From the NCBI GenBank assembly GCA_008636045.1, contig SNRW01000038.1:1-36764 (forward strand): a stretch of DNA of 36,764 nt, in the 5' to 3' direction. How positions within the stretch are numbered: position 1 is the stretch's first letter; each line of letters starts with the position of its first letter. The notes under the pieces were generated by a model. That model saw only the letters and a program-made list of their open reading frames with translations. It did no database searches and had not been told where the DNA came from. This DNA comes from Streblomastix strix (Eukaryota). Below, in pieces: positions 9,489-36,764 of the stretch. The translations under genes and the position numbers were made by a program.

Positions 9489-9532
<44 letters not shown>

Positions 9533-9572
9533 CTTAATAATCTTAATAATCTTAATAATCTTAATAATAATC

Positions 9573-9619
<47 letters not shown>

Positions 9620-9736
9620 CTTAATAATAATCTTAATAATAATAATCTTAATAATAATAATCTTAATAATAATAATCTTAATAATAATAATAATAAATAT
9701 AATAAATATAATAACCTTAAATATAACAACAACATC

Positions 9737-9796
<60 letters not shown>

Positions 9797-12073
9797 CAGA
9801 TATATCTTCATAATCTTAAATAATTTAAAATTCAGAAATTATAAATAAAGAAACAAATTATAATGTGAGTAAGACTCCAAATCTTAGTTAAATCAGTGAA
9901 ACAGAGTAAGATTCATAATCTCTATATTCATTATCTTCATCATCTACCTCATTAAATGATTAAATCCCAATTTATAAATCTCCAGAAACTGACAATAATA
10001 CAAATGATTAGAATCATCGAGTTTCTGTTCAACCTAATATAAAATAAAATTTAAATTAATTACAGCCTGAATAACTTGATTAAGATCCTGAGCAAATAAC
10101 TAATTAAAATATTATTGAATAATAGTCTTAATTCAAATTATAAAACCAGAATAGCAATAATCTTAATAATTAATCAAATTAAAAAGAAATAAAAATAGTT
10201 TAATAAAAAGAAAAAGAAATAAATAGTTCAGAAACAAGTATTTAGTAATAATAAATTGAATAACAAAAATAATAACAATAATAATAACAACAATAATAAT
10301 AATAACAATAATAATAATAATAAATAATTGAATAACAACAATAATAATAAATTGAAAAACAACATCATCAATAATAATAACAACAATAATAATAATAAAC
10401 AATAAAATAATAATAACTATAACAATAGCAATAATAATAAACTATTGAATAATAATAACAATAATAATAAACAATAAAATAATAATAACTATAACAACAA
10501 TAATAATAATAAATAATTGAATAACAACAATAATAAACTATTGAATAATAATAACAACAATAATAAACTACTGAATAATAATAACAATAATAATAAACAA
10601 TAAAATAATAATAACTACAACAATAACAATAATAATAAACTATTGAATAATAATAACTACAACAATAATAATAAACAATAGAATAATAATAACAATAATA
10701 ATAAACTATTGAATAATAATAACAATAATAATAAACAATAAAATAATAATAACTACAACAATAACAATAACAATAAATTATTGAATAATAACAATAATAA
10801 TAATAAACAATAAAATAATAATAACTACAACAATAGCAATAATAATAAACTATTGAATAACAATAACAATAATAATAAACTATTGAATAATAATAACAAT
10901 AATAATAAACAATAAAATAATAATAACTACAACAATAACAATAATAATAAACTATTGAATAATAATAACTACAACAATAGCAATAATAATAAACTATTGA
11001 ATAATAATAACAATAATAATAAACTATTGAATAATAATAACAATAATAATAAACTATTGAATAATAATAACAATAATAATAAACTATTGAATAATAATAA
11101 CTACAACAATAATAATAAACTATTGAATAATAATAACAATAATAATAAACAATAAAATAATAATAACTACAACAATAACAATAATAATAAACTATTGAAT
11201 AATAATAACTACAACAATAACAATAATATTAATAACAACTACATCAATAGCAATAATAATAAACTATTGAATAACAATAACAATAATAATAAACTATTGA
11301 ATAATAATAACAATAATAATAAACTATTGAATAATAATAACTACAACAATAATAATAAACTATTGAATAACAACAATAATAATAATAAACAATAAAATAA
11401 TAACAACTACATCAATAGCAATAATAATAAACTATTGAATAACAATAACAATAATAATAAACTATTGAATAATAATAACAATAATAATAAACAATAAAAT
11501 AATAATAACTACAACAATAACAATAAAAATAAATTATTGAATAATAATAACTACAACAATAATAATAAACTATTGAATAATAATAACAATAATAATAAAC
11601 AATAGAATAATAATAACTACAACAATAATAATAAACTATTGAATAATAATAACTACAACAATAACAATAACAATAAATTATTGAATAATAACAACAATAA
11701 TAATAAACAATAAAATAATAATAACAACAACAATAGCAATAATAATAAACAATAGAATAATAATAATAATAATAATAACAACAACAACAACAATAATAAT
11801 AAACAATAAAATAATAATAACTACAACAATAATAATAAACTATTGAATAATAATAACAATAATAATAAACAATAGAATAATAATAACTACAACAATAACA
11901 ATAATAATAAACTATTGAATAATAATAACTACAACAATAACAATAACAATAAATTATTGAATAATAACAACAATAATAATAAACAATAAAATAATAATAA
12001 CTACAACAATAGCAATAATAATAAACAATAGAATAATAATAATAATAATAACAACAACAACAACAACAACAAC

Positions 12074-12158
<85 letters not shown>

Positions 12159-14754
12159 TGAATAATAATAGATAAATGGAAATGAAATATTACTATAGAA
12201 AAATCCATTTTAATAACAGGAAAATATATAAATTATTGAACAAAAAGAATAATTACCTAATGAGAATTAATAATTGAATAATAAATTACAAGAACTAGAA
12301 AATAATGGATAAAACTAGTAGAATGAAAAGGTAATATAATAAATAGAAGAATTAAATAAACCAAATTAAAATATCATCTAAGCACAAATTGAGGGAAATA
12401 TTTTGAATAATAATAATGAAGCTGAAAAAGATTATAATTTATCGCAAACAAGTGAATAATTCAAAAGCAATTTTATGCAACAAACTTAAGTACACGTATT
12501 ATCTCCTTTTTAAGAAGAATATAAACAACATTCAATTCATGATTAAATAACAAATTCACAAAATAATAATTAATCAAAGATTGAGGAAAAAGACCCCGAT
12601 ATTAATGTTGTTGATAGTCAAACTCTTACATTTCCAGTATAATCTGACATTACAGAACATTTCATTTTTAGTCCAATTCCATTCCCCACTCATATTAATT
12701 AATCAATTCATCAATAAACTCCCAAAATTCCTCAATAATTGCAATCTGAACATATTTCTGATACAAACAATAATATTAGTTAAGATCCTATATAGTAAAA
12801 TAATAATAAATCTTAGTAAGAAATAAAAGAATATTCAATACACCCAACTTAGGATCAACAAAATGATTAATCTTTTGATCCTCCATTATAATAGCATTCT
12901 TCCCCAGCCCTTGATATGTATTCTTCATCTCCTTTTCCATCAACCTCCTCTTTACTTACTGATTTTAATAACAAAGGATAATGTTATTTATATTAGATTC
13001 CTTCATCATCTTCAATTTTAACTTCACAATCATAATATTCTTTATACCCACTTTAAATTGAAGAGCAAAAACCTCAAGGAAATGGATTATTGACTGAAGG
13101 TGCGGTTGATATAAAATAATCAGGGAGTACTATAGATATGATAGACATTAATAATTAGGTTAAAAAAGAAGAAACAATATAAATCAAAGATAATAAATTT
13201 ACACCTTCTACTCTCTTTCCTTAATATTAATAATCTAATTTAAAGAATGATTAAAATTAGATTGAAAATAGTTGTGGAGCAGATATAGTAATTGGAGAGA
13301 AGAATGATAATAAATAAGATTAGAAAATAGTAGAGATAAATAAAGAGAAAGAACACAAAGAGAAATAATCTGAATCATAATTAGAAGCTCCATTTAAACC
13401 ATCAAAATAGCATTAATCTTAATCACCAATCAAAAATGAAATAACATCATCTACATCTTCAACATTACATCATCAGATTTTTCCATAATTATCTCCATCT
13501 CCTCCAATTCCATCAACTTCAACAAATATAATATAATAGATTCACAATTAAAATACAAATGAATAAATAAGCATTATGAATACAAATGAACAAATTCAAC
13601 ACGTGAATTCAATTGATTAGACCCTTAGTCATAATTATTCACATTAAGTATAAGTACAAACTAAGTTAGTTCCTATTTTCATTTCTCCACCAGCAGTATA
13701 AGGATCCGATACAGATCCAATTGGATATCTCCTGAATTACAATCCAGGATAAATTAAAGATCTTGCAAGTGCATGTGGATAAGATGAACTAATTGAACTG
13801 AACAGACGCATATTCTCACTTGTTACTAAAAGATATGAAATGGCTTCGAAAACATTATTTGAATCTCTTGTGGATTTAACAGACTCTGGAGAGAAAGGTG
13901 ACAAATTGAACTAACTTCGTGGATCAATGCTTATCCAATTCCGTGATCTTATGAGTAAACAAGAAGAATAACTTGATGAAATGACATCAGAGATATTCAA
14001 AGGTAGGAAGCCGCAATTGAATCAGTTTGCTGCTGCCAATGCAACACAATAAACTTCTCAATCAACAAATCAATCTCAATAACCTCATCAATTGCAACAA
14101 CCACAATCTTCAACTCCATCGGTCTCACTTTAAAATCATAGTCCAATATAAAATTCATTACTTCCAAAACCTTAAGTTTCATAGTTTGCTAATGTTTAAA
14201 ATGGACCCGAATCTGGAATATCTGTTCAACTTAAAGTAAATACAGCATAATCACAATAATAAGCATAATAAGTATCACCTCAATAAACAATTACTTAGGC
14301 TATTGGTAATGCATCTATCCAATTACCAACAACAACTTTGGGATCTTTTACACCTCCATCAACCTAATCAGCATCAATAACTTCCTAATCCAATGCACTT
14401 GTCTTTTATTAACAAGAAATACCACCCGACAGTGGAGTATTTGTGGAAGTTTTATTGAAGAAAAAACTTCGAGATTTTAGACTGGATTATGAGAAATAGT
14501 AAAAAGAAAAATATTTACGAAAAGAAAAAGCAGAACGGCAGAAAAAACAGCAAAACATTCTAATGCAAACTCAAGCTTAAAACTAGCCATAATCAATATC
14601 TTCTACACCTCATGACAACAATCTACCTCTTCCCAATACTCATTAACCAACCACTGTCAGTAGTGCAGGTACTAATTAGGATCCAATATTCAAATCATCA
14701 TCACCACCTATAGCTGATTAAAATCAAACTAACATTCTCACATCAAAATAGTGA
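2703..14754 (+). CDS. WNK: WNK (With-No-Lysine) Ser/Thr kinase, ~3,973 aa, 3 exons (2703-2759, 2813-3441, 3519-14754)
   Basis: [14 protein letters not shown] (Lys in subdomain I), [61 protein letters not shown] introns at 2760-2812 and 3442-3518. I scanned the 11.2-kb third exon and found no in-frame TGA before 14752. Confidence 0.95.
3469..3490. repeat. (AT)n dinucleotide microsatellite in WNK intron 2
   Basis: Uninterrupted ATATAT run inside intron 3442-3518. Confidence 0.85.
9010..9190 (+). other. CCT/PF2-like (OSR1_C-type) domain within the WNK CDS
   Basis: [42 protein letters not shown] resembles the WNK CCT-like motif (NIHFPF..D.DT..SVA.EM as recalled from plant WNKs). Confidence 0.7.
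9490..9798 (+). repeat. (TAA)n microsatellite with TCT interruptions, encoding poly-Gln/QQS inside WNK
   Basis: Pure TAA runs and TAATAATCT units, all in the WNK reading frame. Confidence 0.95.
10246..12171 (+). repeat. ~1.9-kb coding minisatellite: Q-runs punctuated by TIE/TIK/IIE/L
   Basis: Units such as TAATAATAACAATAATAATAAACTATTGAA (QQQQQQQTIE). Higher-order blocks recur, e.g. 10861-10980 reappears ~240 nt later. Every ATT GAA stays in frame. Confidence 0.95.
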
Positions 14755-14951: not shown

Positions 14952-17900
14952 TCACCTTTCGCCTTTCACAGAGTCAAGCGCAGTATCAAAGTGATTGCTA
15001 GTCTGTATATACAAATATAATTAAATTTAAAAATATTGTAAAGAAATTAAAATAATACTATTATAGGTTGGTTAATGTTGTCATTCAACGCATTTAACAC
15101 TGCTTCAATGCATAATGCTTCTATATCTGCTCCAGAAAATCCATTGGTCTATACCCAATTAAAAAGTATAGTTTGTTATGTAATTTATTATTTTATAATA
15201 TATTTAAACCTCACTGGCGATTTTATAAAGATCAATGATACGATCATCATCGTCATCATCTTTATGACCAAATTTATTCTCGTCTAAATTTGTTTTTCTA
15301 TCTTTTATTTATTCTAATTCTTTCTAATACCTAAATTTCCTTTCTATTTTTTCGATATTTATAATATCTATTCAAATCCAAAATAAAATTTGTTGAAAAG
15401 TTCAAAATCATAGTTAATGCACACTTTTATCTGTTATTTTCTTAAGGTACACAAGTAATATTTCTGCCCTTTCCTCCGTATTTGGAAGATGAAATTAGAT
15501 CTGAACATCAAAACGACCTCCAAGCAAAGATAAGAAAGGGGAAGAAGAGAATAAAATTAAATTTAACAGAATAATATAATTATTAATAAGAATACCTGGT
15601 CTGAGTAATGCATCATCTAGCAAATCTGCGCGATTTGTTGCAGCCTTTAAAAAATATCAAATAAATAAATATTGATAAAAAAATGGGAATTCGTAATTAA
15701 ATCTGGCATTTTTAGATTAATAAATACCATAACAATAACTCCTTCAATGTGTTCGATGCCATCCATTTCTGTCAGAAGTGTAGTTAATATTCTATCTTTA
15801 ACTCCATTTCCTATAAATATATATAAATATAAAATTAAGATCAATAATAATACACATTTTATTATAATCCACAATCTTCTTCCAAACCATCATATTCACC
15901 ACCACGTTTTCCAACTATTGAATCAATTTCATCAAGAAAAAGAACGCAAGGTGAGGACTGACGAGCTCTGATGACAATTTTAACCAACAAACAAAAATAT
16001 CTAAAATTTCAAATAGCAATATTATTATGGAAAAAAATAACCTATGAAAAGCTTCTCGTAATATCCTCTCTGCATCACCAACATAACAAGAATAAACCCC
16101 AGCACATGAAAGGACGATTAGTTGAGCATTCATTGCTCGACACGATGCTTTTACAATGGTTGTTTTTGCTGTTCCTGGAGGTCCCCACAAAAGTACTCCT
16201 CGAGGTGGAGGAATAAGAGAAAGAAGTCTTTAAGGAAGTTACTGCTCAGATGAAGATGCTTATGAATTTAAAGAAAAATTATCTGATTAGTTTTGATGGT
16301 GTAATGTTGGCCATACAACAGATTCAATAATTTTCTATGAATATCGCATATATTCAGAAATAAATATCAAAATAGTGAATAAATATATGATATACTCTCT
16401 TAACTTCATGAGCACCACCAATATCTTCCCATTATGTATTTGGGACCTCTGATACAAATCTTAGTATAAAAAAAATATTATCATAAAAGACATAAAAATA
16501 ACCAAACCCTGTTCCAGAAGCAAGTGAGGGAGTTATGACTGTTAAAGCATTATTAACATCATCCGATTATATTTATATAAATGAATTGTAATCAAAAGGT
16601 GAATCATTTTCCAACGAACATTATTCTTTAGTTAAAATTTGATTTTCTATTTATTGTTTTCTCCTGACCCATTCTCTTCCTATGCACACTTTGATTAACT
16701 CATTTTTAATTTTGATTAAATCTTCTGGAGTATATCCCGCAGTCAATGGTGAAAGATAATTTGCGAGTTGTTCTAATGGAGATAATACTGAAGATGAAGT
16801 CGAAGATTATTTCTAAGATAAAAACGAAGGACTAATTTTCAAAGATTAAGTTTCATGTATCAATAAATCTATTTATTCCAAGCAATTTTCTTTTTCTTCC
16901 TATTTAATTTCTATTTATCCACCTGATTTTTAATTAATTTATTTTTGTTATTCAACATTATTTATAAATTTCATCTTTATTCCATAAAATAATTATTTCA
17001 ATAAATTATTTCTCGATTGAATATTTGGAGGAGGTACCATAATTTCTCAGTCCAATCGGCCCATACGCCTTAATGCTATATTCATGTCGTCCAACCTAAA
17101 CAATTCAGTGAAAACAAAAATATAATAAAAAATATTTAAATAAAAAACCTTTTTGTAGTAGCTATAACGACAGCATTATTTGAAAGTGCTAATGTTATTT
17201 TATCTTAACATTTCTTCTAGTTTAATTTACCATTTTCGGTTATAATTTATTAATCAGAAATTTCTTTTTTCGATTTATCCTTTGATTGATATGATGAAAT
17301 TCCAATTTCTGCTCCCACGCCATCAATAAATGATAAGATCATCTATGAGATGTGTTGTTTTTCGGTTGAATGAGGTAGAGTGCGAGGGCATAATTAATCA
17401 ATGTCTTTAATAAGTAGAATAGTTGGTAGAATCTAAGTTGTATTGTTATGTTTATTTATTGAATTCTCTTTTAAAAATTCTTTCTTTTTCTTTTTTTATT
17501 ATTGTTTTTTATCTTAAAAGTAATTCTTATTATCGGAGTTTTATTAATTTTCTTTATCCATTTTATTTTATTCAATTTCAAATTCTTTTTCTTCATTAAA
17601 TTATCCTGAGACCTAAGATAGTATTTCTCTCACATAATCAACACTTTAAATTCCTTTATTGGTCTGGCAACTTTAATTCAATTATAAAGGATCAAGAGTA
17701 ATTATTCTAATTCCCAAGAAATAAGCAACATTATGTATGATGTGTGTCTTTCCAATCCCTCTGGGGCCATACAAAAGAAGACCTCGTGGACGACGAGCAC
17801 CCAGCTGTTTCAATGCATCATTATTGTACAAAGAAAGATATATAAAGTCAGCAACATCACGTGCTACATGCTAATTAGCTTCACAATTTAAAATTTAATC

Positions 17901-18677
17901 GGGATTTTCATTTATATTTTTTGAGTTTGGTTAGTTTTAAAGTGAATAAGTCTAATAAGTTTGCTATTCATTTTGGCTGAAAATATGAAGTTATGGTAGT
18001 ATAAAATTAGTAAGTTGAGGGAGAGGAATTATTAATGGAGATGAAATGTCTCATTAATTTGAAAAATTACACTTCTCTTCTGGCAATGATAAATTTAAAT
18101 TAGAAAAAGAAAATCTTGCAGCTTATGGTTATCTGTTCGATAGTTTTTACAGTTCTGGTTTCAAATTCTGTTGCTTTTGCAAAATTGGTTTTGAATTAGA
18201 AGTAGAAAGCGATAAATAATCTTAAATTATGAAATTGGTTGATAGATCCATTTTAGTGGAATAATGTGGAGAAAATGCTTCGACTCGAAAGAAAACTCGT
18301 TCATTAGGACTTGGAAAAGGACCAAATATTGCATTTGTGTTCAAGTCAATAAAAGAAGTAGCCAGTTACAATATAAAAGAGAATATAAATTTCTATAAAA
18401 TGACAATAAAAGAAAATACACAAATCTCAAAAAAAATTAAAATATTCAATTTTATGAGTATGCAAACTTTAAAATCCTTACATTTTGAGCATTATTTGCC
18501 TTCAGAGTCTATAGTTGAAATATTTTAATAATTATCAGGTCTAATGTTCAGTGGAAAGATCCCACAAGATTTTTCACATTTTGGCAGTTTTCTAGCGTCT
18601 GGAATGTCAAGTATTATACTCAAGATGATTGATTGACTAATACATTATTAAGATGTGGATTTTTGTACTCCTTTCAT
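14952..18677 (-). CDS. CDC48-family double AAA+ ATPase, most like AFG2B/SPATA5L1; ~10-12 introns; contains in-frame TGA codon(s)
   Basis: D1: RRPRGLLLYGPRGIGKT, degenerate Walker B ILLIKDID, SRH ALRRMGRLD*EI. Linker VPNTQWEDIGG. D2: RGVLLWGPPGTAKTT, YVGDAERILREAF, VLFLDEIDS, LTTLLTEMDG, ALLRPGRFD. Stop at 14952-14954. The start at ATG 18677 is inferred (in frame with D1). Confidence 0.85.
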
Positions 18678-18850: not shown

Positions 18851-21800
18851 TCACTAACTCAGATTTTGTACCACTCCAATTCGTGATCCCATCCGCAAAA
18901 GTGTTTCCACACGAAGTTTACTGTTGTGAACAAGATCAGAATCATATGCAACTGCACCACGAGGGAATAGAGCAACAACAGATGAGCCACCATGGAGAAA
19001 ATATCCTAATTCTTCTCCAATTCTCACATTCTATCCCACATTAACGGATGAAACACATGAACCTATGAAATATGCAATATATAATTTAATAATTATAAAA
19101 TAAATTTATTATATATTGCATACCCACATAACAAGCTCCTATCATAATTAATATGAAATCAAATGCTTTAGCTTTCATATGAAAAATTAAACGTGCATTT
19201 TCTGTAAATACATCGATATCTTAACGCACAGCAACAGGATTAACAGTATAATATGTGCCATCCACTCTTTCAAGGTTAGTTACTTTCGCATCAAGTGGGC
19301 TGCAAATAAAAAAAGGGGGGGGGGAAAAATTATTTAATATAAAAAAATAAATAAAAGGAATTATGAATAGAAAAATAAATTTTGAAGCCAACCAAAAAAC
19401 ACGATGAAAATCTTATGGAGCTAATCTCCCTATGAAAATTGATGCTCGAAGTTTCTTATGTTTGTACATGTTATCTTACATAAAATTAGTTTGTACAATA
19501 TTTCGATCTGATTTATTATTTTTATTATTCTAAAGAGTTTAAACATCTAAATTTTGTGATTTTTAATCAATTTTATTTTCAATGGTATTTATCTATTCAT
19601 TATTTCTATTTATATTAAAATTTGAAATGAGTAATGAAGACTATGATGATTATTAAGAATTGAAAGATTAAGGAGAAAAATTAAGAGGAGAAGAGACACT
19701 TGGAGAAAATGTAAATTGGGTTTAATTTTGGGGAGATGAAGATCTTGAAGGAGATTTAGATTGAAGATATTTAGCAACATTTCCTTTGATCTTTTTTAAA
19801 TCAGTTGTTTGGTTAGTAGTTATTTTATGATTGCAGAGTGAACATACAACAATTCCTTATACATCAGTCCCTTTCTCTGTATTCATTTGTTTCGTAGCAG
19901 TTACAATGTTTCCAAGTTGTTGCTTTTGAGTGAAAATAGGAGAAACAACGAAAGCAGCTGTTGCAGAAGCTTGAACGGCTTCCAAAGGCTGAATTGGTTC
20001 TTCATTCTGAGATTAATCATCATTGTCTATTTCAAGAGGAATTTGTACTAATTATGGTTATTCAATCTCAGCAATTCTACATTCATTATTCGTTTCAGTT
20101 TTGATGTTAAAATTTGGTTTTTCATTCGGATTAGCAAATTATTAATCTTCAATTAATGATTGTGAATTCTTATTCTACTTAATATTTTAACTTTCTCCAT
20201 CTATTGGCTATTAAGAACTATTCTCGACTTGACTATTTTATAGCAATGCAGAATTATTATTGTTTCCATTCAAAGATTCAAATTTTAATTTATCCATATC
20301 AGTTAATATTTCATAAGTATTTGAATGATCTTTTGTATTATTTTGAATTGTATTGATTTAAATGAATTAAGATAATTAAACTGGAACAAATTATTTTTCA
20401 ATTTATTATTCATTAGAAATTTAATTGGGAATTACTTATTAATTCAAATTCTATTATTTTTCACCAATAGATTATAAGTCGATGTGTTAGAATGATTATT
20501 GAGTATTGTCTAATTGAGAATGAATTTTTCCATCTGCAATGGCTTTTGTAAGTATTTTCTTTCTGCATTAACTACAAATTACCCTTCCTTGCAAAATCTG
20601 CTGTTATTGAGATACTTTATTATTTATCAATGAATAATTCTATTAAAATTCATTTTATTTTAATAATGTTTCATTTTAAGAAGATTCATTGCTATTTTTT
20701 ATATTTGAATTTGGTAATAATGAAAAAAGATCAATATCAAAAGGAATTAATGAAGAAGATTAGAATTTAATTTCATTTTCTTATTAAATTTGTGTTTATG
20801 AAGGTTGATTAGTAGGTTGAAACTCAACAGTTTATTTTTGTTTCTTTTTGTTTTTATTTTGTTTTTATTCGTTCTTTTCTTCTTTTTATAAAAATGTGAG
20901 GAAATTTCTTTCTTTTTTCTACGAATTTAATTAAGCACGCAATTAAGCCTTTGTTTATTAATATTGAATCTTTTATTCTTTCTTTATTTTCTTTTATTCA
21001 GCTTATGCTTCTCTTTGTGCCAATTTCTTCTGTCTTTGTGCATGCTGTTTAATTCGCTTGTTTTCTGCTTTTAATTCTTTTATCTTTATTTTGTTTTCAA
21101 TTTTTTTGGCTTTTTCTTCCTAAGCTGGTGTTAAATATCCATCAGGTTCATCATCATCATCATTATCTTAATCATCATCATCATTTTCATCTGAATCTAA
21201 ATCATCAATTTCATCTTCTTCAATAAATAAATTTTCTTCAGGAATATCAAAACTAATAGTTTCCTCTTTAACTGCATCAATTGTTGATTCTTTATTTGTT
21301 GGTTTATTTTCAATCAATTAAATAGAAAATGGTTATTTTCTTTCATTTTTATTTGTTGTTAAAAACTAATTATTATTAATTATTTATCCATTTCCTGATA
21401 ATTAACTTCCAGGTCCCAACTTAATATCTATATTTTCTTCAACTTCAAAAATCTTAACAAGTTATTATTTATTAGCAAGAAGTGTTGAAATACTAAATTA
21501 TCTTCCTTTAACCCAAAGTGTTGTTGCTTCTTTAATTGAATCAAATACCATTAATCTACAGTCACACGGTGAAACAACAATATTCAATTATTTAATTTGA
21601 TCTAATGAACATTCTTCTTCATTTCTCTATATTTCACAATTGCCATCTATCAATCGAGCTCCATGTTTTAATTTACGAGAAAAGAATGAATCAAATGTTT
21701 TATAGAATTCGGGTGGATACTCAACCTCACCAATATCAATTTAATAACTTCTAATAAATGGAAATATCTCATTTACACTTTGTGTATTGCTTTTAGACTT

Positions 21801-24800
21801 TCCCATATCTTTAGTCATCTTAATAAACCATTACTTCATAACTTTGGTCCTTAATAAGCTTCTTCCCCATTTGGTGCAATAACCAGCTCTAAATGCAGCT
21901 ACAAGAACATTGGGCACAAATTCCTTCACTATGAGTCCAGTTGCTCTGTCAACAACTCGAAGGGATCTCGAATCAAGGAGTTCATTTATCCTTGAATTAC
22001 TCAGATTGTGTTCAGCTCTGTATTTCTTCACTATTTTTGGAGTTAGATATCCATCCCATAATTGTCTTGAAAGCTAATTACTAATTTAATTCACTTTCTT
22101 TTTTGAAATTGTTGGTTATTTCTTAATTTTCTTCTTCTATTACTTTTGATTTCCTTTTTATTTAATTAATGAATGTTAAGACTATTAAAATAAATTTTAT
22201 TGTTAAGAATCAGATTATATTGATTGTTAAACAGACTAAAATGCGGTTTAAGGTGAAATGCCTATGGTCCCTCCTTTTGCTTCTGCTGTTGCTATACTAA
22301 ATGGAATTGATGCATTATGATCACCAAACTGTTTCTAATTAGATTATTGATTAAGTATTAAGGGTTGTGTTATATTTTGTTATTAATTGTCTGATTCTAA
22401 TGATTGAGGTTTTTAGATTGAAGATTGTTATAATTAATATTAATTATTATTTCCTTCAATTATTTAATCCTAAGATTCTTCTGATTCACTTGAACTTTAA
22501 TAAATAATCTCTTCATCTTCTTCATCATCATCTTCTTCTTCTTTCTCGTCTTCTATCTCACTTTCTGATTCTTATTCATCTTCACTTTCTTCTTCATCTT
22601 CTTCTTTATAATCATCACCAACACAAAATTCACTGTTTTCTGCATATGTAGAATTATCTTCATCCGATTCATATGAGCTATCTTAAATTTCTTATTCTTC
22701 TTCATTTTCTTTCTTTTTGTTGAAAAAGTTGATTCCTGATCCATTACTAACAATATTATCAGATAATGCAGATTCATTTTCATGTTCTTCAGATATTTTA
22801 TCGAATTAATTTTCAATTTTTCTCTTCATCTTCCATGTCTTTCTATTTCGATTTCTTTCTGTTTCATAAATATCATATCCAACAGATAATTATCTCTTCA
22901 GAATTGAAATCTTCTTCAGCTTTGATTCATGTTTGATCTTTTCTTCTTCATCCATTTCATCAAATTCATCAGATAATGAAGATAATGAACTTTCTTCACT
23001 ATTTAATCCACTTCTGTCTGAAGGAGGAGCAACTGAGAAAGGAGATGAATTTGAAAGATCACGAATATTGGTTGAATTTGAACTATCTTATGATTTGATG
23101 GATTATGTTGTATCATCATCATTATAAGAAACAGCAGATGGTAAAGAATGTGGAATTTATTAAAAAATTTAAATGTCTTCATTTTATTTATCCATTTATT
23201 TGATTTATATTAATTCTTGATGTTAAATATCAGGTAATTTAAATGGACCTGATTAATAAGAGTTAATTTTTTGATCTTACGATGATTGAGAATTTACTTA
23301 TGTTTAATTCAATGAAAAAGGTTTCTTCAAATTTGTATTTATTTTATCTTCATTATTTACTTTTGGAATTTAGAATGGTTTTTATGGAGAATGAGGCGGA
23401 GATGTGGGAAGAAGTGGTTTCAGATTATTGTTCAGTTTTAAATTTGAATTTTAATTATTTGAAATGGATGAGGTAGAAAATGGTTATGAAATTTATTAAG
23501 TTGTATATGGTTATGAATTAGAAGAGTATAATGAAATGGATTTTGATGACTTATTCTGGGTTTGAATAAGAGCTTATGAAGGAGTAAGAAATGCTTTTTT
23601 CATTTCTCTGAGAACAATTGGTGTTGCTTGTTTAATTACAAAGCGAGCAAGAGGATTTGAGGGTAAAAATGGACCAAGTGGATTAAAAAACATAAAATAT
23701 AATTTAGCAGCTCTTGAAATATGGTTAATCATCTTCTTTCCTCTTTCATTATCCTATACTTATTTTAATGAAGGATCTTTTACACGTTATTTCTCTATTT
23801 CTAATTCTTTCAAATCTGTTTTAAGTTTAGAATAATCTGCTTATTTTTAATTGTGCAAAATTATTTAATTATTGTTTTGATTTGAATCTTTTTATTACTT
23901 TTCAGGATTTATAGAATTGTTTGATTTATTAAATTTATTTAAATTATCTTTTTTAAATTCATCAATTTCATTTCTTTATTAGATTTCCTTCTATTTTATT
24001 CTTTCTTTCACTTTCTCCTTTTCTAATTCCTTTATTTTCTTCTTTTCTTCAATCCTCCATTTAACTTTCTCTATTTTAGATTGATCTCTCTAGTAAACCT
24101 TCTCTTATTCATCTAATTCTGCATTTCTTTCTCTAACAGCGCCTTTGATGGTACCAGCTCCATACAGAAGAGAGAAAGATCCTGGATTGAATAGACAATC
24201 ATCAATCCCATTATGAAGTGCAGATAAACATGTTGACCCAAGAAATGCTTGAATCTCAAAAAGAGGATCAGGATTAAGTTAAGGTGCAAATATAACTTCT
24301 CTCATAACCATTGATAGAATCTCTTCTTCACTTTGTGAATTGGCTGAAAATGGATATTATTTCTATGGTTGGTCATTAATATTCAATTGAGTGCTCGATG
24401 TGTCTCTATTTTATTATATAGGGAAAAGAAAGCTTGGATCTTATACTTATTATTAGGAATAATTAATTCCAGTTATTTCCTATTTTTATTCATTCTTTTA
24501 ATTTTTATATCCATTTTATTGACTTTGATTTGAATTTTGTATAGATTTTTGCAATTATTTTTTATTCTGTTTACTTTTTTATGGTTAATTTAAATGAGTT
24601 GGGAAGAATGATATTCCTGATATTGGACCAGTCCGTAATATTAATGAAATGGGAAATTTAAGGAGAATTAATACAAGAGAGGCAATGCTACAACTAAGAG
24701 TGTTTTCATCTGGATGAGCAGCTCTGAATAAAGGAGGCCACATACTATCTGGGAATGATTCAAGAATAAGTGAATTTGTTTCTTCATCAGATTATGAGAC

Positions 24801-26432
24801 AGCATCAGAAGATTCAATCTTTTCAAACTCATATGTAAAAACCATCTCTTTCTCTAAAGAAGAAATTGATGGAATATCAGCAGAAACAGCTGCTAAAAAT
24901 ACTGAAAATTCAAAAGGGTTTAATCTTCCATCTTTATCTAGATCAAAGTGACTAAGAACATGCATATAAACATCTGCAGCAAATACTTCTTTAGCTTAAA
25001 AGTTAATATGAACAGATATTTCACCTTTTTACTGAGTTAAATGAGCTATTTTCCATTATAATTATCTTATTTCTTTTTCTTAGGGAATGAATGCTGCTGG
25101 AAATTATTCAATATTGGTGATAGTTGAGTTGTTAGTAATCACATTAAGACTCTATTGTTATTATTGTTGTTTTTCATTTTGTGTATCATTCTGAATTTAT
25201 TCAGATTTATTATTCTCATCATCTTTTAAAGTATAATTTTATGAATAAGATTCAAAATCTGTTTCTTTTTCTTATTCTTTTAATTAATCGTTCTTCTTCT
25301 TCTTTCCAAAAATAGTAAAATTAAATCTTTTCTTATCGTTCTATTATTTATCTTATCCAATTTATGATAACTACTGGTTTTACTTCAATGAAAGAGGTAT
25401 AATAAAAGGAATTGTATACCTACCATTGAGAATATTCAGAATAAAATTATGAAGTGTGATATCTGTATCTGTCATTAACGGATTTTCAAAGAGTGCGCCA
25501 TTTAGAATTACTTATGCATTTGATATTTTTAGTGGTTACCCAAATAATAATTGTTTTTATTTTAATGCTATTGCAGATAATAGTTTTTCTTCCTCATTTG
25601 TAAGCAATTTTTGAATAATATAAAATTTACATTTATTTTCATTTGTGAATGGTAAATGTAAATGTTCCATCTCCAATTTCTTTTTCCTATGCAATTCATT
25701 TATTTTACGAATTAAATCAATGATTTTATCTCCTTTCTCATATTATTCACTCTGATTGTTCTAATTAACAATATTCTCTGCAATTCCTAATAGTATATCT
25801 TCAATAGTGAACATCCAAGATCCAATATATCCATCTTTATATTACCTCTTCCCCTTTTGTTACTTCTTCTGTTTTGAGCTCTGGTTCACATTTGTTTATT
25901 TTAATTTTGTTTTTATCTTTGTTTGACTTTCTTGATGGTTATCTTTATGCTCATTATCTTACTTAGCAATGAATGGACTTTAATTTGATGCTTTTGTTTG
26001 TGCTTCCTGAATTCGACGCTGAAACAGAGAAACAATAATTCTGTAGTTAAGATCACTAGTCTTGATCCAAATAAAGACTTCTTCTCTTATCTCTGAATTA
26101 TATTAATGTGAATTAGATGTTTGATCAACATTGATTGGAATTGTGCTGATTGAGTCTATGTATTTAGCATTGGGTATGATTGTCGGATGTGGAAAGGCAA
26201 AACTTTAAACGGCAGGTCTAGAAATGTCAATGTTTTATTACTGTTATTAATTTTTAGAAATTTTTATATGTTGGCGATTAATAAATGTATTTTTGATGAT
26301 TGAAGGAGAAAGAGAATTGATTGTTAATATGTTTCTACCAAATCTAAATACTAGTTTGATTTTATTTCCAGCGGTTTTAGAAATTCTAACTTTATCTGCA
26401 GTAATACGTAGTACGCCAATCATAGGATCCAT
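18851..26432 (-). CDS. PSD2: Phosphatidylserine decarboxylase proenzyme, PSD2-type with C2-like region and EF-hand, ~2,475 aa, 3 exons (26432-19393, 19299-19124, 19062-18851)
   Basis: YKTFDSFFSRKLKHGAR, VSPCDCR, WVKGRQFS, RLAPQDFHRVFCP, YYTVNPVAV, DVFTENAR, GEELGYFLHGGSS (self-cleavage site), ETLLRMGSRIG. EF-hand loop DLDKDGRLNPFE near 24910-24947. The 7.0-kb first exon has no in-frame TGA. Confidence 0.92.
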
Positions 26433-26874: not shown

Positions 26875-29800
26875 TCACTCACCATACATCAGAATTCTAC
26901 TTAATTCCTCATCTTCGTCAATTTATCCTTCATCGTCAACTCTTCTCCTTTTCTTTCCCTTTCCATCTCCAATTTCAACTGTATTCCCTTTCCCCTTCTT
27001 ATTATTCTTCTATTATATTCCTCCAATCTCCATCTCTTCATTATCAATATCTTCATTCTCCAACTTCCTTTCTTCTTTCCCTTCTTTTCTTCTTTCCTTT
27101 GATTTCTCCAGTAATACTTTCCCTATTTTCTTTCTTATTCCTTCATCTTATTCATCACCATATCCAGTACTATTAAATAATAGATAATAAAGAAATAAAT
27201 AATAAATAATACTGACAGTATTAATAAGTTAAGTTATAACTATTAATATTACAATTAATTATTTTATCAATCAATTAAACCTTCCTCTTGTAAATCTACC
27301 TGATGAATAATATTCATTATCAACTTTCCTTCTTGCTGCTTCTGTTGCCAAATGTGAAGATATGGCTGTAATTGAGAGAGCAGGTTATGGATGGGATGAT
27401 AATAATGATGATGAAATGTTCTTTTATTGACTTTGATTTTGAATTCTATAATCTGAGTAATTAATGTGATGATTTATATAATAGATAAAAAAGAATTAAA
27501 TGGATATAAGAAAGTTTTAAATAAATAAAAAAATACTTTATTCTTCTTTTCCTTCATCAGTCAATTCTGACATCAATTAATCAGACAAATCTAATTAATA
27601 AAATTGTAATGTAATTAATTAATCAATTAATAATAATTATTATATTAATATACTATTTGAAGCATCATCATCAGCGTATTCAATCACAAGATGTCTTCCA
27701 TATAAATGCACCTATCCCAATTGTTCCATTGCTCTCCTTATTGTATAATCAATAAAATATTAACTATTAAATAAATAATATATTTCTAATATACCTGCAT
27801 TCTTCACCAGACCCAAATTCAACAAATCCAAATCCTCTTAATTGTCCATCATGCTTCTTTGGTAATCTAATTGATTTGATTGTTCCATAAACTGAGAATA
27901 ATGATTTAATGTCTTATTGAGTTGTCTATTAGAAAATAGAATTACGATTAGATATACACGCATATATATGAATATAATATTATAATATAATATAACACAT
28001 CTTTATAAACAAATAACAAACCTAGAATGCAATATTTTTCACCAATAATTTAGTTCTCAATTTCTTCTTCTTATTCTCTTGTATTTATTCCTTCTCTTTA
28101 TTAATATTAATATTTTCTCCTTTGACTGTGTCTTCTATTGAATGAGATGGAGGAATATGTATATATTCATCTCCAAATGTTTCTTTTGTTATTTAATTTT
28201 GTTGTGATGATGATTATTGTCCTTTACTACTTTTCTTTAATTAATCTGAATCATCTAAATCTGATTGGGATGAAGTGGAATTTGCTGAAATTAAATAATA
28301 ATAAAAATAATAAGTAATAAAAAATTTATAATATAAATATTAACTATTTAAATATATTATTCATTTTCATCATAATTTAAAAGTTATACAAATTTAAATA
28401 GAAGGTTATATTCTTTGAGTAGCATGTGAGAGAGAAACTTCTACAACTCTTCCATCAAGAACAAGATGGCTCTAATATAATATGATATAAAATAAGATAT
28501 AAAATGTGATATGAAGAATTCTATTAGTAAATAAAATAAAATAAAATTTATTTATTAACTTTCAAAGCATTCATTGCTTCAATTGTTTCATCCTTAGATT
28601 TGAATTCAATAAAACAGAATCCCATTGATTATTCAACTATTTCACTTTCTTCTTCTTCTTTTTCTTCTTCTTCATTATCTTTTTCTAATTATTTCTTCAT
28701 TTTATTTAATTTCTTCATTATTTTCTTCTTTCTTTTTGGAATACTCACAGAAACAGGATAATATCCTCTTTTATTAATTTCTTATTTAATTATCTGTTCA
28801 GTTGATTTGAATGGAATGCCTTTCATGAATAAAGTTCTGCCAAATATTCCATGTTCAATATCATTATCTTCTTCACCTTCTCTTTCTTTAATTCTCTTCC
28901 GTTATTCATTCTTTTCATCTTCTTATCCATTTTAATTCATAAATACTCCTTCAGGTGCCCATTCAAGATATAGAGGAGCATCTCCATATCTTTTATATAC
29001 TAATTAATTAAAGGCTTTCTTTGCACCTTCTTTATCTTCATCTGAGAATTCAATTAATGCTATAACCTAGATATTAATAATATTAATTAATTAATGAATG
29101 CAAGCAAATAATGACAATAAGATATTATATGTATAATTAATGAGAATTATACCTTTGTTGGTGGCATAATGAATCTTAAAGGTCTTCTATTCCCTGCGGC
29201 TGAAGTGAACATTCTTTCTAATTCCCTAATTATAATAATAGATAATTAAATTGGAGAAATAAATTTATTCAAATCAATAATTTATTTTTCTTGTGTTTTA
29301 ATATTAATGAATTAATGCAATAATAAATACTTTGGATCAGTATTTGGCCCTAAATTCTTTATTATAATAATTCTGTCACTTCTCTTTATTTAAGGAGACT
29401 AATAACATTATAAAAAATAAAATTAATAATAATGAATATATAAATAATATCTGAATAATTATTATATTCCTTCATCATACATTAACATTCCCTTTAACAT
29501 TCTATTTCCCTTCATTCTTCATCATAATAATATTCATATCTATTCCTTCTTATTATAAATATTATTTCGTATCATTGACTACTTCAGATTGTGCAATAGC
29601 TGCTCTTGATGCAATTGATTACCCCTTATTCCATAAATACTGATTATTTTATCCATTATTATGAGATTATGATGAACCATCTCCTTTGAGCTCATCTATA
29701 TTTAGAATATCTCTTTTATTTACCTAAATGTTTAAAATAATAATTATTATAGTTTGAATATTAATATATGAATATATATTTCCATTTCCTTTATAATATC

Positions 29801-31781
29801 TATTCATACTCCATAAATATCAGCTACAGCTCCAACTGCATGATTTTCTCCAACAGTTACCGAACTCCAAACTTCTTCATTTAAAGATCTTTTCTTTATT
29901 TAATTCAGTCTCTTTTATTTAAATGATTGTGATAATACTAAATAATAAAAATAAATATAAATAAATAAATAATATATTTATTAATATATAAGATAATAAT
30001 TAATATTATATTAAGCTAAAAATAAAAATAACATTTTCCTTATTTTTCTTATTCATCTTCCATCATCTTAATCTCTTTCTCGGCTGGTGCTAAATGAATT
30101 ATCCTTCCTTAGAAAACATGCATTCCATCTTTATACATATAAGCCTATTATATATTAATACATTATAATAGGAATAAGTAGGAGAAGAAATAATATAATA
30201 AAATAACTCTCATACTTTTAATGCATCAATCGGTCTTGTAAATGAAATGAAACCTTATCCTTTTGCTTTCTTTGTATTGAAATCTCGAAGAATACGAATC
30301 TAATAAATAAAGAAAATAATAAAGAAAAATTTAATTTGAATAATAATAATAATAATAATTCTATACTTCACTCATTTCTCCAAATCTTTTAAAATATTGT
30401 CCAATTTCTTCTTCATTTGCATCATATGGAATATTTGTGACATATAATCTTCCAGTTTCAACCAATAACGAAGCATCTTCATTTGCAACCTTTATTTACG
30501 TATCTAATTTCTTTTATTTCCTATCAATAGATTTGTTTAAATTATTAACATTCTCTTATTATTCTTCATTTTATTATATTTTAACATCCTCATCTTTTTA
30601 TTCCTATTATTCATCATCCTTATTATCAACATCTAATTCTTCTCTCTTCCTCTTTTTCTTCATCATATTCATTATATCATCATCTTCTTCTTCTTCATCT
30701 TCATCTTCTTCTTCTTAATCAATTCTATTGTTGTCTTTCATTTTTGTATTCATTACATCATCAGGATCAAAGATTGCTTATTCTTCATCATCTTCATTAT
30801 CATCATCATCAAATACAATTTCTTCTTTAATATTATTATTCTATTACTGATCTTCTTTCCTCTTTTATTCTTTCTTTCCTTTTCTCTTTTTTTCTTTGTT
30901 TTCAACTTTCCCTTCTCTTTCATTATTCTGTTTCTATTCATCATCATTCATCCAAGATGGCTTTGTTGATGGTCTTTAATATGCTTAATTAATTAAAATG
31001 AATAATGTGAATTAAATTGAAAAATGTTAAATAAAAAATATTCAAAGAGTTATTTGGTCTTATTTAACTTACCTTGTCGAAGTTCTTTATCTTTTTCATT
31101 TTCATCCTTGTTTGCTTCTTTTGATTCTTTTCCTTTCTTCTTTCTTTTATCTTTATCCTTAACATCATTCTAATCCTTCCCCCTTATTCTGTTAATTTCT
31201 GAGATCATTCCTCATTATTCTTCAATTAATTATGTCATTTTCTATTTCATTGCTTAAACCTTAATATCTTTCTGTATATAATATATAATGATTATATAAA
31301 TAGTAATCAATTATATTTCAATAATGTATCTAACCTATTTCTCAAAAAATTCTTTCCTCTTTTACGACTTATTACTTTTAGGAATAGAAATTGAGACATC
31401 TCCAACCTAAAATATATATTCATAATTTCAAATAAAATAGAAAATAATTAATTAACTATGTTTGAATAAGTTTAAATACTGGTTTTGCAAGCTCAACAGT
31501 TATACGGGAAGTGTTTACAAATGTTTTATTAAAATGATTAACAGCATTTTAAGCAGTAACTTCATCTTTAAACCCAACAAATCCGAATTATCTTGACTTC
31601 CCATTCCTGGATGAAGTTAATAATAATAAATAAATAAAAATAATTGAAAAATATTAGATATTTACGTTTTTCTCTTAATAGAAGCATCAGTAACAGCTGC
31701 AAACGATGAGAAATGCTGACGAAGTCCTTCATCTTGAAAATAGTCAGGAAGACCGAATACTATTATGCGTTGTGATGACAT
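26875..31781 (-). CDS. MRD1: Multiple-RRM ribosome biogenesis factor RBM19/MRD1, about 18 introns; one in-frame TGA at 31212-31214
   Basis: RRM1 MSSQRIIVFGLP...NGKSRQFGFVGFK...FNKTFVNTSRITVELAKP; ETGRLYVTNIPY; PLYLEWAP; last RRM TKLLVKNIAF...IRLPKKHDGQLRGFGFVEF...HLYGRHLVIEYA. Stop at 26875-26877. Confidence 0.92.
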
Positions 31782-31857
31782 CTATTAAAAAACTATAGTA
31801 GTAAAATAAAAAATTGAAATTATATATTAAATTAATAAATTATATTAACGTGAAAAG

Positions 31858-32320
31858 ATATTTTGTTCATTTATTATTTTTGTTTTATGAATTTAAGGAA
31901 TTAATATATAAATAAGTGTAATTTTGAGGTAAAAGATAATAAAATAATTATATCTGACAATTAAAATCAATTAAATAGATTAATTATTTATTTGGCACGC
32001 GCTGTGCTCATTTTATTAAATAAAAAATACAAACCAATTTTGTGAAAGGGTGAGTTATTATCATTTCAAATAAAAAATTGGTTATAAGAAAATAAAATGT
32101 TTAGATTAAAAATTAATTAGATGAAGAATATATGATTCGACCTTAATGCCTTAAACAGGCTTTTTCACGAAGAGCTGAAATATAATTCATTATATGGAAT
32201 AATATTATGCAATTTTTGTAAGAAATTATTATATTTGTAAATATTTTTAGTATATGTAGAAATAAAACCTTGGTATTGAAATATCGCTCAAAAAATAAAA
32301 TTTTGAACTTACTGATCTAG
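31858..32320. repeat. Copy A of a ~460-bp duplicated intergenic element (between the BOP1 stop and the RBM19 start)
   Basis: Reverse complement aligns by eye along its whole length to 35860-36323, e.g. GACCTTAATGCCTTAAACAGGCTTTTTCACGAAGAGCTGA, TTTGGCACGCGCTGTG, TGTAGAAATAAAACCTTGGTATTGA. Confidence 0.95.
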
Positions 32321-35300: not shown

Positions 35301-35488
35301 ATTTGGATCTTCAATATTAATCTTCTTTCTTTATATTCGTGGAAACATATACAAGTCCATATATCTCTGCATTTAATCCCTTGAATATACAAATAAACAA
35401 TATAAATATGATTTATATGATAATATTAATCTTTCATTTATATTATATCTATTTGTTTTTACGTTTATTAAACCTCAATAATCCATCA
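32373..35488 (-). CDS. BOP1: BOP1/ERB1 C-terminal part (WD40 propeller), 5'-truncated at ~35488, intron-rich
   Basis: DGLLR|DQMQRYMDLYMFPRIQRKKINIEDPNSLLPKLPDPQDLRPYP, LRGHSSSV, GGQYLATGAQDG, IVWFDL, PIIVPVKLL, AFHAREAWIYVGFDDGVVRLFT*. The ending matches the BOP1 C-terminus RLFT*. No BOP1 sequence continues upstream on this strand. Confidence 0.9.
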
Positions 35489-35809
35489 ATTCTTCCTCAA
35501 TAAAATTCCTCTTCTTAAATACCATCAAATATTCCATCTATATAACAGTATTCTCAACAACCATTTACACCATCTCAAAATATTCTTTCTGCATTAGCTG
35601 CTCAATAAGCTGGAGGAATCTCTCAATCTGCTCAGCCTCAGTAACTCGCGTTGTAACAATAACTGGTACTTCAGTAGCGACTTGCACTTTAACAGCAGGC
35701 TTAACTACAATCCCAAGGTTCGCAACTTGGAGTATAGTCGAAGGATCAAACAGAAATGATCCAAGCACTGATCCGACGCCAGCAATCTCCATTTCAAAAG
35801 CCAATATGA
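35471..35809 (+). CDS. 3' fragment of an unknown Gln-rich gene (no start; begins at the junction)
   Basis: With TAR=Gln it reads NNPSILPQQNSSSQIPSNIPSIQQYSQQPF...QQLALQQQLVLQQRLALQQQAQLQ...EMIQALIRRQQSPFQKPI*. Mixed CAA/CAG/TAA/TAG Gln codons and higher GC than the flanks indicate coding sequence. Confidence 0.7.
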
Positions 35810-35859: not shown

Positions 35860-36323
35860 CTAGATTAGTGAGTTCAAAATTTTTACTTTTTGAGTGATAT
35901 CTCAATACCAAGGTTTTATTTCTACATATAATATAAATATTTACAAATATAATAACTCCTTACAAAAATTGCATAGTATTATTCCATGTAAAGAACTATA
36001 TATCAGCTCTTCGTGAAAAAGCCTGTTTAAGGCATTAAGGTCCAGTCATATATTCTTCATCTAATTAATTTTTAATCTAAACATTTTATTTTCGTATAAT
36101 CATAATTATATTTACAATGATAATAACTCCCCCTTTCACAAAATTGGTTTGTATTTTTTATTTAATAAAATGAACACAGCGCGTGCCAAATTAATAATTA
36201 ATCTATTTAATTGTTTTAAATGGTCAATTATTATTATTTTATTATCTTTTACCTCAAAATTACACTTATTAATCTATTAATATCTTAAATTCATAATTCA
36301 AAAATAAAAAATGAACAAAATAT
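35860..36323. repeat. Copy B of the ~460-bp duplicated intergenic element (between the Q-rich gene stop and the BOP1 start), inverted relative to copy A
   Basis: Colinear reverse-complement match to 31858-32320 with scattered substitutions and small indels. Confidence 0.95.
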
Positions 36324-36371
36324 ATTGCTACCATTATTGAAAATTATTATTTATATTTTAATTATCTAAAG

Positions 36372-36764
36372 ATGCTTGGCTAGTATCGAACTTAAATCCA
36401 ACGAGCTGTTGATCCGTTAACACGGCGCACGGTCCATGATGATGAAACTGGAGAAGATATTGTGCTCACAAATGAAGAGATCGAACTTCTAATGCGCATA
36501 TCTAATGGTGCTTTTGCAACAGAATAGTCTGACAGAGAATTTGTTTGCATAATATTCTTTATTCAAATTAATTATTATTACTCTCACATCTCGTACAGTA
36601 TCCAATCTTTGACTATGATTCTATTCATCCTGTGTCAAATCGTCCAACACCAAAAAGCTCATTTTTACCTTCAAAATTGGATTCTAGAATTATTGTCCGT
36701 CTTGTAAGAAGACTTAATAAAGGAACTATTGGATAGCCAATCAAAAAGAAAGAAGAGAATCTTT
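36372..36764 (+). CDS. BOP1: BOP1/ERB1 N-terminal part (BOP1NT domain), exons 36372-36542 and 36599->end; runs off the window
   Basis: DPLTRRTVHDDETGEDIVLTNEEIELLMRISNGAF...IHPVSNRPTPKSSFLPSKLDSRIIVRLVRRLNKG matches BOP1NT (DP..WRTV.D..TG..V.LT.E...HP..NRP..KRSF.PS). Intron GTTTGC...CAG at 36543-36598. Confidence 0.88.

What the first reader, a model, noticed from the sequence alone, without database searches (positions are those of the whole stretch)
31212..31214. Second gene with an isolated in-frame TGA: RBM19/MRD1
Seen: exon 31271-31073 has matching splice phases at both ends and reads KDIKVQAMKQKMTQLIEEQ*GMISEINRIRGKDQND, with a single TGA and no frameshift. Termination here would drop every RRM after the first. 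MRD1 is essential for 18S rRNA processing in yeast (established). The only splice escape I found is a 12-nt microexon plus a purine-rich GTTTAA...TAG intron, unlike the other introns in this gene.
Basis: partly seen in the sequence, partly recalled or inferred. Interest (0 to 1): 0.78.

Follow-up and report, generated by a model that had tools for sequence, protein, structure and literature searches.

The report
Internal UGA codons in oxymonad genes
In the assembled DNA of a termite-gut protist whose only known stop codon is UGA, three UGAs sit inside coding stretches of two ribosome-assembly genes, two of them at conserved positions; they are likely read as an amino acid, though dead alleles or sequence errors remain possible.

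Summary
The TGA at 31214-31212 (minus strand) is in the assembly, at codon 125 of the Streblomastix strix MRD1/RBM19 gene (TAA/TAG = Gln). The public gene model hides it in an 84-nt intron. That stretch scores as exon, has very poor acceptors, and encodes 28 residues that align without gaps to both oxymonad orthologues (11 and 8 identities; 0 of 100,000 shuffles as good). The TGA faces Lys and Leu there. An AFG2-family ATPase gene 13 kb away has two more in-frame TGAs. One lies in the conserved AAA second-region-of-homology motif, where homologues have Arg, Lys or Gln. All 3 internal TGAs are followed by G; all 6 gene-ending TGAs by A. Not Trp, no SECIS, no readthrough motif. Best reading (0.45): rare internal UGA is decoded as sense, likely Arg, possibly Gln, as reported for some ciliates and not found reported for oxymonads. 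Rivals: nonsense alleles masked by an unassembled copy (0.28), amplification or assembly error (0.12), splicing (0.06), editing (0.05). No read or RNA covered the site, so this is unproven.

The parts
31212..31214 (-). In-frame TGA, codon 125 of MRD1; context TAA TGA GGA
   Evidence: aligns to K (M. exilis P0028) and L (B. nauphoetae P0029)
31073..31271 (-). MRD1 exon 4 (199 nt) holding the TGA; its first 32 codons continue an oxymonad-specific linker segment, predicted helical
   Evidence: helix 91-134 in the AlphaFold model of the M. exilis orthologue
31176..31259 (-). 84-nt stretch annotated as an intron in the public model; likely coding
   Evidence: GC 0.29, G 0.23, T 0.23 against 0.05-0.18, 0.02-0.11, 0.40-0.61 in 18 other introns; exon score +0.27 against -0.10 to -0.53; +4.4 bits under a model trained on other genes, 18 of 18 real introns negative
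26875..31781 (-). MRD1/RBM19 gene, 18 introns if the 84-nt stretch is exon; ends TGA-A
   Evidence: P0001 = KAA6404004.1, 100% match to this 36,764-nt contig; exon map
14952..18677 (-). AFG2-family (SPATA5/SPATA5L1-like) double AAA ATPase gene with two in-frame TGAs; ends TGA-A
   Evidence: Pfam AAA twice; best PDB hits AFG2A, AFG2B and yeast Afg2, nearly tied; own gene parse
17047..17049 (-). In-frame TGA in the second region of homology of AAA domain 1 (ALRRMGRLD*EIMV); context GAC TGA GAA
   Evidence: faces K in human AFG2A, R in human AFG2B, Q in yeast Afg2; the stop-free parse removes the whole motif; +25.7 bits coding
18051..18053 (-). In-frame TGA in the N-terminal part of the ATPase; context TAA TGA GAC; probably exonic, no orthologue available
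   Evidence: the 96-nt escape intron 18072-17977 has codon periodicity (G+C 11/11/4 of 32, p 0.018) and C 0.22 against at most 0.13 in real MRD1 introns; +7.4 bits coding

Best explanation
The TGA lies in conserved coding sequence of the S. strix MRD1 gene, and it is likely read as an amino acid (likely Arg, possibly Gln), which would make UGA a rare dual-use stop/sense codon in this organism. Shown: exonic position, conservation, two further in-frame TGAs in a neighbouring ATPase gene, and +4 G at internal versus +4 A at terminal UGAs. Inferred: such codons arise mainly by CGA to TGA change at mutable CpG sites. They would be tolerated because a near-cognate tRNA (tRNA-Arg by a first-position mismatch, or the UAA-reading tRNA-Gln by a second-position mismatch) competes with eRF1 at UGA-G far from the mRNA 3' end, while UGA-A near the 3' end terminates. 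Gene predictors would hide such codons in false introns, as happened here.
For: Gapless 48-residue match from the PK anchor to RGK in all three oxymonads; 28-aa stretch 11/28 and 8/28 identical, 0 of 100,000 shuffles reach the score; BLASTP 41%, E 1e-4. Three internal TGAs in 9,445 modelled codons of six genes. The two alignable ones face K/L and K/R/Q. Random substitution error would need about 130 changes, 0.5% of coding bases, yet no frameshift was seen in these models, and the 3,779- and 2,520-codon open frames are intact. +4 base: G 3 of 3 internal, A 6 of 6 terminal, Fisher p 0.012. MRD1 breaks 11 of 77 conserved columns against 13 and 15 for the two orthologues, so it shows no decay. 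Only one S. strix MRD1 protein was found. CpG is depleted at codon junctions, 38 seen against 73 expected. Precedent: Gln/Gln/Arg codes and low-frequency TGA readthrough reported in ciliates (PMC10089648, section 5); yeast inserts Arg at 7% of UGA readthrough events (PMC4967479, passage).
Against: No read, RNA or peptide evidence. n = 3, from one contig of a fragmentary single-cell assembly (PMC10703272, passage) whose right end looks inverted. All three fall in 2 of 6 genes (p 0.012 by codons, 0.05 by Arg codons, post hoc). UGA-G is not a leaky context in model eukaryotes (order C>U>G>A, PMC4615788; +4 purine strengthens termination, PMC13192750). No stimulatory structure downstream. +4 A at real stops may only reflect AT-rich 3' UTRs, and the six gene ends are my own models. 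+4 G is also what a CGA origin predicts (15 of 36 CGA are followed by G), so it does not separate recoding from nonsense alleles. The B. nauphoetae residue is Leu. The third site has no orthologue. AAA domain 1 has a degenerate Walker B (KD for DE), so that gene may be under relaxed selection. S. strix eRF1 and tRNAs could not be examined.
Confidence: 0.45

Rival explanations
1. The TGAs are real nonsense mutations, probably CGA to TGA at CpG sites, on one haplotype or genome copy. The cell lives on an intact copy that the assembly collapsed or missed.
For: CpG depletion. Aligned K/R and +4 G fit a CGA origin (p 0.07 for three G, against 0.0009 for a TAA origin). Two hits in one gene is what a dead allele collects. 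The assembly is 152 Mb with 56,706 genes and 69.6% BUSCO, against 75-89 Mb in relatives (PMC10703272 table), which leaves room for extra or missing copies.
Against: No frameshift seen in the gene models. No excess of broken conserved columns in MRD1 (low power for recent death). No second S. strix MRD1 protein among 297-2000-aa, 117-2000-aa or 50%-cluster hits; shorter fragments were not searched. It needs two genes 13 kb apart dead while the gene between them stays open.
Confidence: 0.28
2. The bases are artefacts of whole-genome amplification or assembly (for example C-to-T damage fixed early in a few template molecules).
For: Single-cell assembly (PMC10703272). BOP1 is split across strands near 35480, which looks like an amplification-type inversion join (the phi29 link is recalled). 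A scan of many windows selects such outliers.
Against: At 1e-4 errors per base, two or more nonsense errors in 30 kb of coding DNA have probability 0.004; three need about 0.5% error. Run X1 holds 0.97 of the sampled words of 28500-31800, but it may be the source sample and the missing words cannot be placed.
Confidence: 0.12
3. The MRD1 TGA is removed by splicing (84- or 90-nt intron, or a longer intron from donor 31334), as in the public model; a recently intronised piece of exon.
For: Good donor at 31259. The public model does this. One cDNA-checked S. strix intron has 36% GC, and UPF1 is present (PMC1501061). The segment is absent from the non-oxymonad homologues examined, so it may be dispensable.
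Against: Acceptors score -8.3 and -17.5, below all 18 real ones. It deletes 28 residues conserved at the whole-protein average (39%). It cannot explain the TGA at 17049 without deleting the AAA second region of homology.
Confidence: 0.06
4. mRNA editing restores a sense codon (U-to-C giving Arg, or A-to-I giving Trp).
For: Two of the sites sit in the 5' arm of a small hairpin; 2.6% and 1.3% of 1,125 planted-TGA controls pair as well (metric chosen after seeing it). Arg fits the alignments.
Against: Hairpins are weak: 98, 8 and 62 of 200 shuffles fold as well at the three sites. Several real stops also fold. Trp does not fit either alignment. I know of no nuclear U-to-C editing in metamonads (recalled, not searched).
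Confidence: 0.05
5. Selenocysteine insertion, or termination followed by restart at the AUG two codons later (MRD1 made as two pieces).
For: S. strix has a Sec elongation factor (PMC10703272 supplements 3 and 5). An in-frame ATG follows the TGA after one codon. Yeast RBD1 is non-essential, though important, and may act independently (PMC3553979, PMC3440411, passages).
Against: No Cys at the aligned columns; no SECIS by Rfam. A restart would cut a predicted continuous helix. No in-frame Met follows TGA 18053 before the Walker A motif.
Confidence: 0.04

Closest known systems
Ciliate Gln/Gln/Arg codes (Uronychia, Stylonychia, Sterkiella and others; PMC10089648, section 5)
   Same: TAA/TAG = Gln; TGA both ends genes and occurs at positions where homologues have Arg or a similar residue.
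   Different: There TGA was counted hundreds of times (987 in U. setigera) and checked on reads. Here it is 3 in 9,445 codons, from one contig, unchecked, in a metamonad.
Karyorelict/Parduczia and Condylostoma ambiguous codes (tables 27, 28; PMC4967479)
   Same: UGA would be sense inside genes and stop at gene ends, on a TAA/TAG = Gln background.
   Different: There UGA = Trp, is efficient and is common. Here it does not align to Trp, Trp uses TGG (33 times), and internal UGA is rare.
S. strix table 6 code as published (TAA/TAG = Gln; PMC1501061)
   Same: Fully borne out in this window: 897 TAA and 102 TAG in 7,224 codons.
   Different: I found no account of internal UGA in this species; the public MRD1 model removes it with an intron.
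MRD1/RBM19 pre-rRNA processing factor (PMC3440411, PMC3553979)
   Same: Multi-RRM order and conserved motifs; 39-40% identity to oxymonad orthologues.
   Different: Carries an oxymonad-specific linker-1 segment, predicted helical, in which the TGA lies.

Membership tests
MRD1/RBM19 | Several RRMs in conserved order, orthology to named MRD1/RBM19 proteins | tested here: met
   Pfam RRM_1 E 7e-58; hits named RBM19/MRD1; alignment; five RRM-type folds in the orthologue model
Spliceosomal intron of this gene | AT-rich, T-rich, non-coding composition | tested here: not met
Spliceosomal intron of this gene | Typical donor | tested here: met
   7.6 within 1.0-8.3
Spliceosomal intron of this gene | Typical acceptor | tested here: not met
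   -8.3 and -17.5 against -0.5 to 13.8
Spliceosomal intron of this gene | Removal seen in RNA | not testable with these tools
   no RNA holder listed
Gln/Gln/Arg bifunctional-UGA code | TAA/TAG = Gln | tested here: met
Gln/Gln/Arg bifunctional-UGA code | Internal TGA aligns to Arg across many genes | tested here: inconclusive
   2 alignable sites: K/L and K/R/Q
Gln/Gln/Arg bifunctional-UGA code | TGA fixed in reads and translated | not testable with these tools
UGA = Trp ambiguous codes (tables 27/28) | Internal TGA at conserved Trp columns, and common | tested here: not met
   neither alignable site faces Trp; 33 TGG; the 3 columns that are Trp in both orthologues hold TGG, TGG, TAC
UGA = Trp ambiguous codes (tables 27/28) | Altered eRF1 or short-stem tRNA-Trp | not testable with these tools
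   no genome held; no tRNA in window
Selenoprotein | UGA at a Cys-aligned site and a SECIS in the 3' UTR | tested here: not met
Programmed readthrough (UGA-CUAG or downstream hairpin type) | +4 C motif or stable 3' structure | tested here: not met
   +4 G at all three; z -0.49, 0.84, 0.78 for the downstream 110-125 nt

The most novel reading that the evidence does not exclude
Streblomastix strix has no dedicated stop codon: UAA/UAG are Gln, and UGA is read as Arg (or Gln) at internal UGA-G sites and as stop at terminal UGA-A sites. About one codon in 3,000 would be such a UGA, so hundreds to thousands of its public gene models would be mis-spliced or cut short. It would be an ambiguous-stop code caught early in its spread in a mitochondrion-less metamonad.
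Probability: 0.4. Interest if true: 0.85.

Novelty: new variant of a known kind. Interest (0 to 1): 0.62.

Why it matters
If true, it adds an independent origin of a code in which all three stop codons can be sense, outside ciliates and trypanosomatids. It would do so at an early, low-frequency stage, which bears on how stop codons are captured. It is directly testable on existing public reads and with a genome-wide alignment scan. Even if false, the public S. strix MRD1 model contains a false intron that deletes a conserved segment, and the contig shows how gene finders hide internal stops.

Tried and rejected
Read check: the first lay was not run. On 31160-31790, none of 4 runs gave a contig spanning the site; only 8 short pieces under 90% alike were laid, which is no evidence either way. 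No RNA holder listed. No whole genome held. Exact DNA patterns found nothing in metagenome contigs, genome contigs (91) or viral contigs (92). The 80 related MRD1 loci from metagenomes gave no match to the oxymonad segment. A search for longer relatives of the ATPase exon found none among 1,677 candidates, so no orthologue for TGA 18053. The protein atlas gave no result for it. A first TGA scan missed both the MRD1 site and the 17049 site, so it is insensitive; the gene parse found them. An apparent fourth stop at ATPase codon 832 was a wrong donor in my parse; donor 15887 gives an open junction, and it was dropped from the count. A seventh 'terminal' TGA-G at 35477 was dropped from the +4 tally: it ends a 107-aa ORF at the suspected inversion join, and keeping it would weaken the contrast to 6 A and 1 G. 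Shared hairpin idea: weak, noted under editing. Yeast QXQ readthrough (PMC13192750): two sites have a 5' Gln codon, none has a 3' one, and the third has neither. Earlier-findings look-ups gave nothing for this genome. Papers not held: the genome paper and PMC308109.

Full report
Source and gene. An exon of the gene, read under table 6, matches one protein at 100%: P0001, 'putative pre-rRNA processing protein' of Streblomastix strix (KAA6404004.1), from a 36,764-nt contig. The next hits are named RBM19. S. strix is an oxymonad that reads TAA/TAG as Gln (PMC1501061, parts 1-2 of 4 read). The window agrees: 897 TAA, 102 TAG and 0 TGA in 7,224 training codons, where base composition predicts 86 TGA. 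The assembly is a fragmentary single-cell one (PMC10703272, passages).

Observation. The TGA at 31214-31212 (-) is there, the only stop in the 199-nt exon 31271-31073. It is codon 125, just after RRM1. The public model avoids it with a 12-nt exon and an 84-nt intron, 31259-31176.

The 'intron' looks like coding sequence. It has G 0.23 and T 0.23, while the 18 other introns have G 0.02-0.11 and T 0.40-0.61. It scores +0.27 on an exon/intron model, where those introns score -0.10 to -0.53 and 19 exons 0.10-0.57. With a model trained only on other genes it is +4.4 bits, and 18 of 18 real introns are negative (one of the 17 training introns had mis-set ends). The donor is normal, but both in-frame acceptors score below every real one. 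One periodicity test on this stretch alone was negative (p 0.78), and its frame margin, 8.1 bits, is in the lower part of the exon range.

Orthologues decide it. The two best hits after P0001 among 1.84 billion representatives are the Monocercomonoides exilis and Blattamonas nauphoetae orthologues. Both have exactly 48 residues from the PK anchor to RGK, as does the read-through S. strix sequence. The 28 codons of the 'intron' match at 11 and 8 positions (the orthologues match each other at 12), and 0 of 100,000 shuffles score as well. The TGA faces Lys and Leu. AlphaFold on the M. exilis protein with a 30-sequence alignment predicts one helix over residues 91-134 (block pLDDT 67-84), which includes the position. 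The segment was not found in the non-oxymonad homologues in hand. The codon is therefore exonic. Yeast Mrd1 needs its RBD3 and RBD5 (PMC3553979, passages), so stopping here would give a null.

It is not alone. A gene parse that allows TGA at a penalty recovered the MRD1 site and two more in the AFG2-family ATPase gene at 18677-14952, and none in the BOP1, gene-1, WNK or PSD segments parsed. TGA 17049 lies in ALRRMGRLD*EIMV, where human AFG2A has ALRRPGRFDKEIEI, AFG2B ALRRPGRFDREVVI and yeast Afg2 ALRRPGRFDQEVEI. The stop-free alternative deletes that motif. TGA 18053 could be removed by a 96-nt GT-AG intron with weak sites, but that stretch has codon periodicity and C content unlike introns; no orthologue was found. 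The count is 3 internal TGAs in 9,445 codons (PSD first exon only, BOP1 from 35097). One further apparent stop was a parse error.

What the three share. All are followed by G; the six gene ends I modelled are all TGA-A (Fisher p 0.012; one doubtful TGA-G end at 35477 left out). None faces Trp or Cys. Rfam finds no SECIS, although S. strix has the Sec elongation factor. There is no UGA-C motif and no stable downstream structure. CpG is depleted at codon junctions (38 against 73 expected), and 15 of 36 CGA codons are followed by G, so CGA is the most economical origin.

Weighing. Random error must supply about 130 substitutions (0.5% of coding bases) to make three TGAs, with no frameshift seen and two very long frames intact. 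That is unlikely, though the contig's right end shows an inversion-like join. Dead alleles masked by an unseen copy explain the CGA origin and the double hit. They predict frameshifts, broken motifs and a second copy; none was found, but these tests are weak for recent events and short fragments. Decoding of rare internal UGA explains all three with one cause and has precedent in table-6 ciliates (Gln/Gln/Arg and low-frequency readthrough; PMC10089648, passages and section 5). Against it: UGA-G is not a leaky context in model species (PMC4615788 and PMC13192750, passages), the sites cluster in two of six genes, and nothing here shows translation. Which tRNA would read it is inferred: Arg is a known minor insert at UGA in yeast (PMC4967479, passage); reading of UGA by the ciliate UAA-type tRNA-Gln is recalled, and that paper was not held. 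Position-dependent termination is borrowed from Condylostoma/Parduczia (PMC4967479) and untested here.

Print. Searches for Streblomastix or oxymonad with stop codon, readthrough, UGA, in-frame, and for UGA-arginine reassignment listed no title or abstract on sense UGA in oxymonads. I saw listings only for most, passages for PMC5304391, PMC3440411 and PMC10120064, and could not read the 2003 code paper or the genome paper.

Verdict. Observation confirmed and strengthened; the public intron is very likely false. Recoding is the leading but minority-to-even reading (0.45). It would be a new variant of a known kind. Interest 0.62, because one read pile-up and one genome-wide alignment would settle it.

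Noticed in passing
window 36378-36763 (+) and 35384-32373 (-): BOP1/ERB1 is split across strands: BOP1NT profile positions 30-131 on + running off the contig end, 218-259 and the WD40 part on -, with 132-217 missing. Likely an inversion join near 35480 (amplification chimera or misassembly); a real split gene is not excluded.
   Followed up: partly
window 31818-32304 and 35877-36363: 487-nt, 88% identical inverted repeat; each copy lies just upstream of a ribosome-biogenesis gene start (MRD1 and the BOP1 N-terminal piece). Shared promoter or mobile element. 30 of 57 differences are A/T swaps.
   Followed up: partly
window 35478-35798 (-): 107-codon ORF within a GC-richer open frame (0.35), no Pfam match; probably cut at the inversion join.
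   Followed up: partly
window 14952-35384: Three ribosome-assembly genes (AFG2-family ATPase, MRD1, BOP1) lie within 21 kb on one strand, with one long gene between the first two.
   Followed up: no
window 3415-14754 (+): 3,779-codon open frame following a WNK-like kinase domain (label from motif recall), with a long QQQQTIE-type repeat tract written largely in TAA.
   Followed up: no
window 18851-26432 (-): About 2,600-codon gene ending in a phosphatidylserine-decarboxylase-like region (label from motif recall) behind a very long low-complexity N-terminal part.
   Followed up: no
window 17395-17420 (-): Walker B of the ATPase's first AAA domain is degenerate (LLIKDID), while the second domain's motifs read intact.
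   Followed up: no
window 1104-2511 (+): Acidic protein with a weak importin-beta-binding-like N-terminus (E 0.006, below cut-off).
   Followed up: no
window 14749-14754 (+) and 18851-18856 (-): Two real gene ends are TAG TGA, a Gln codon (former stop) directly before the stop.
   Followed up: no
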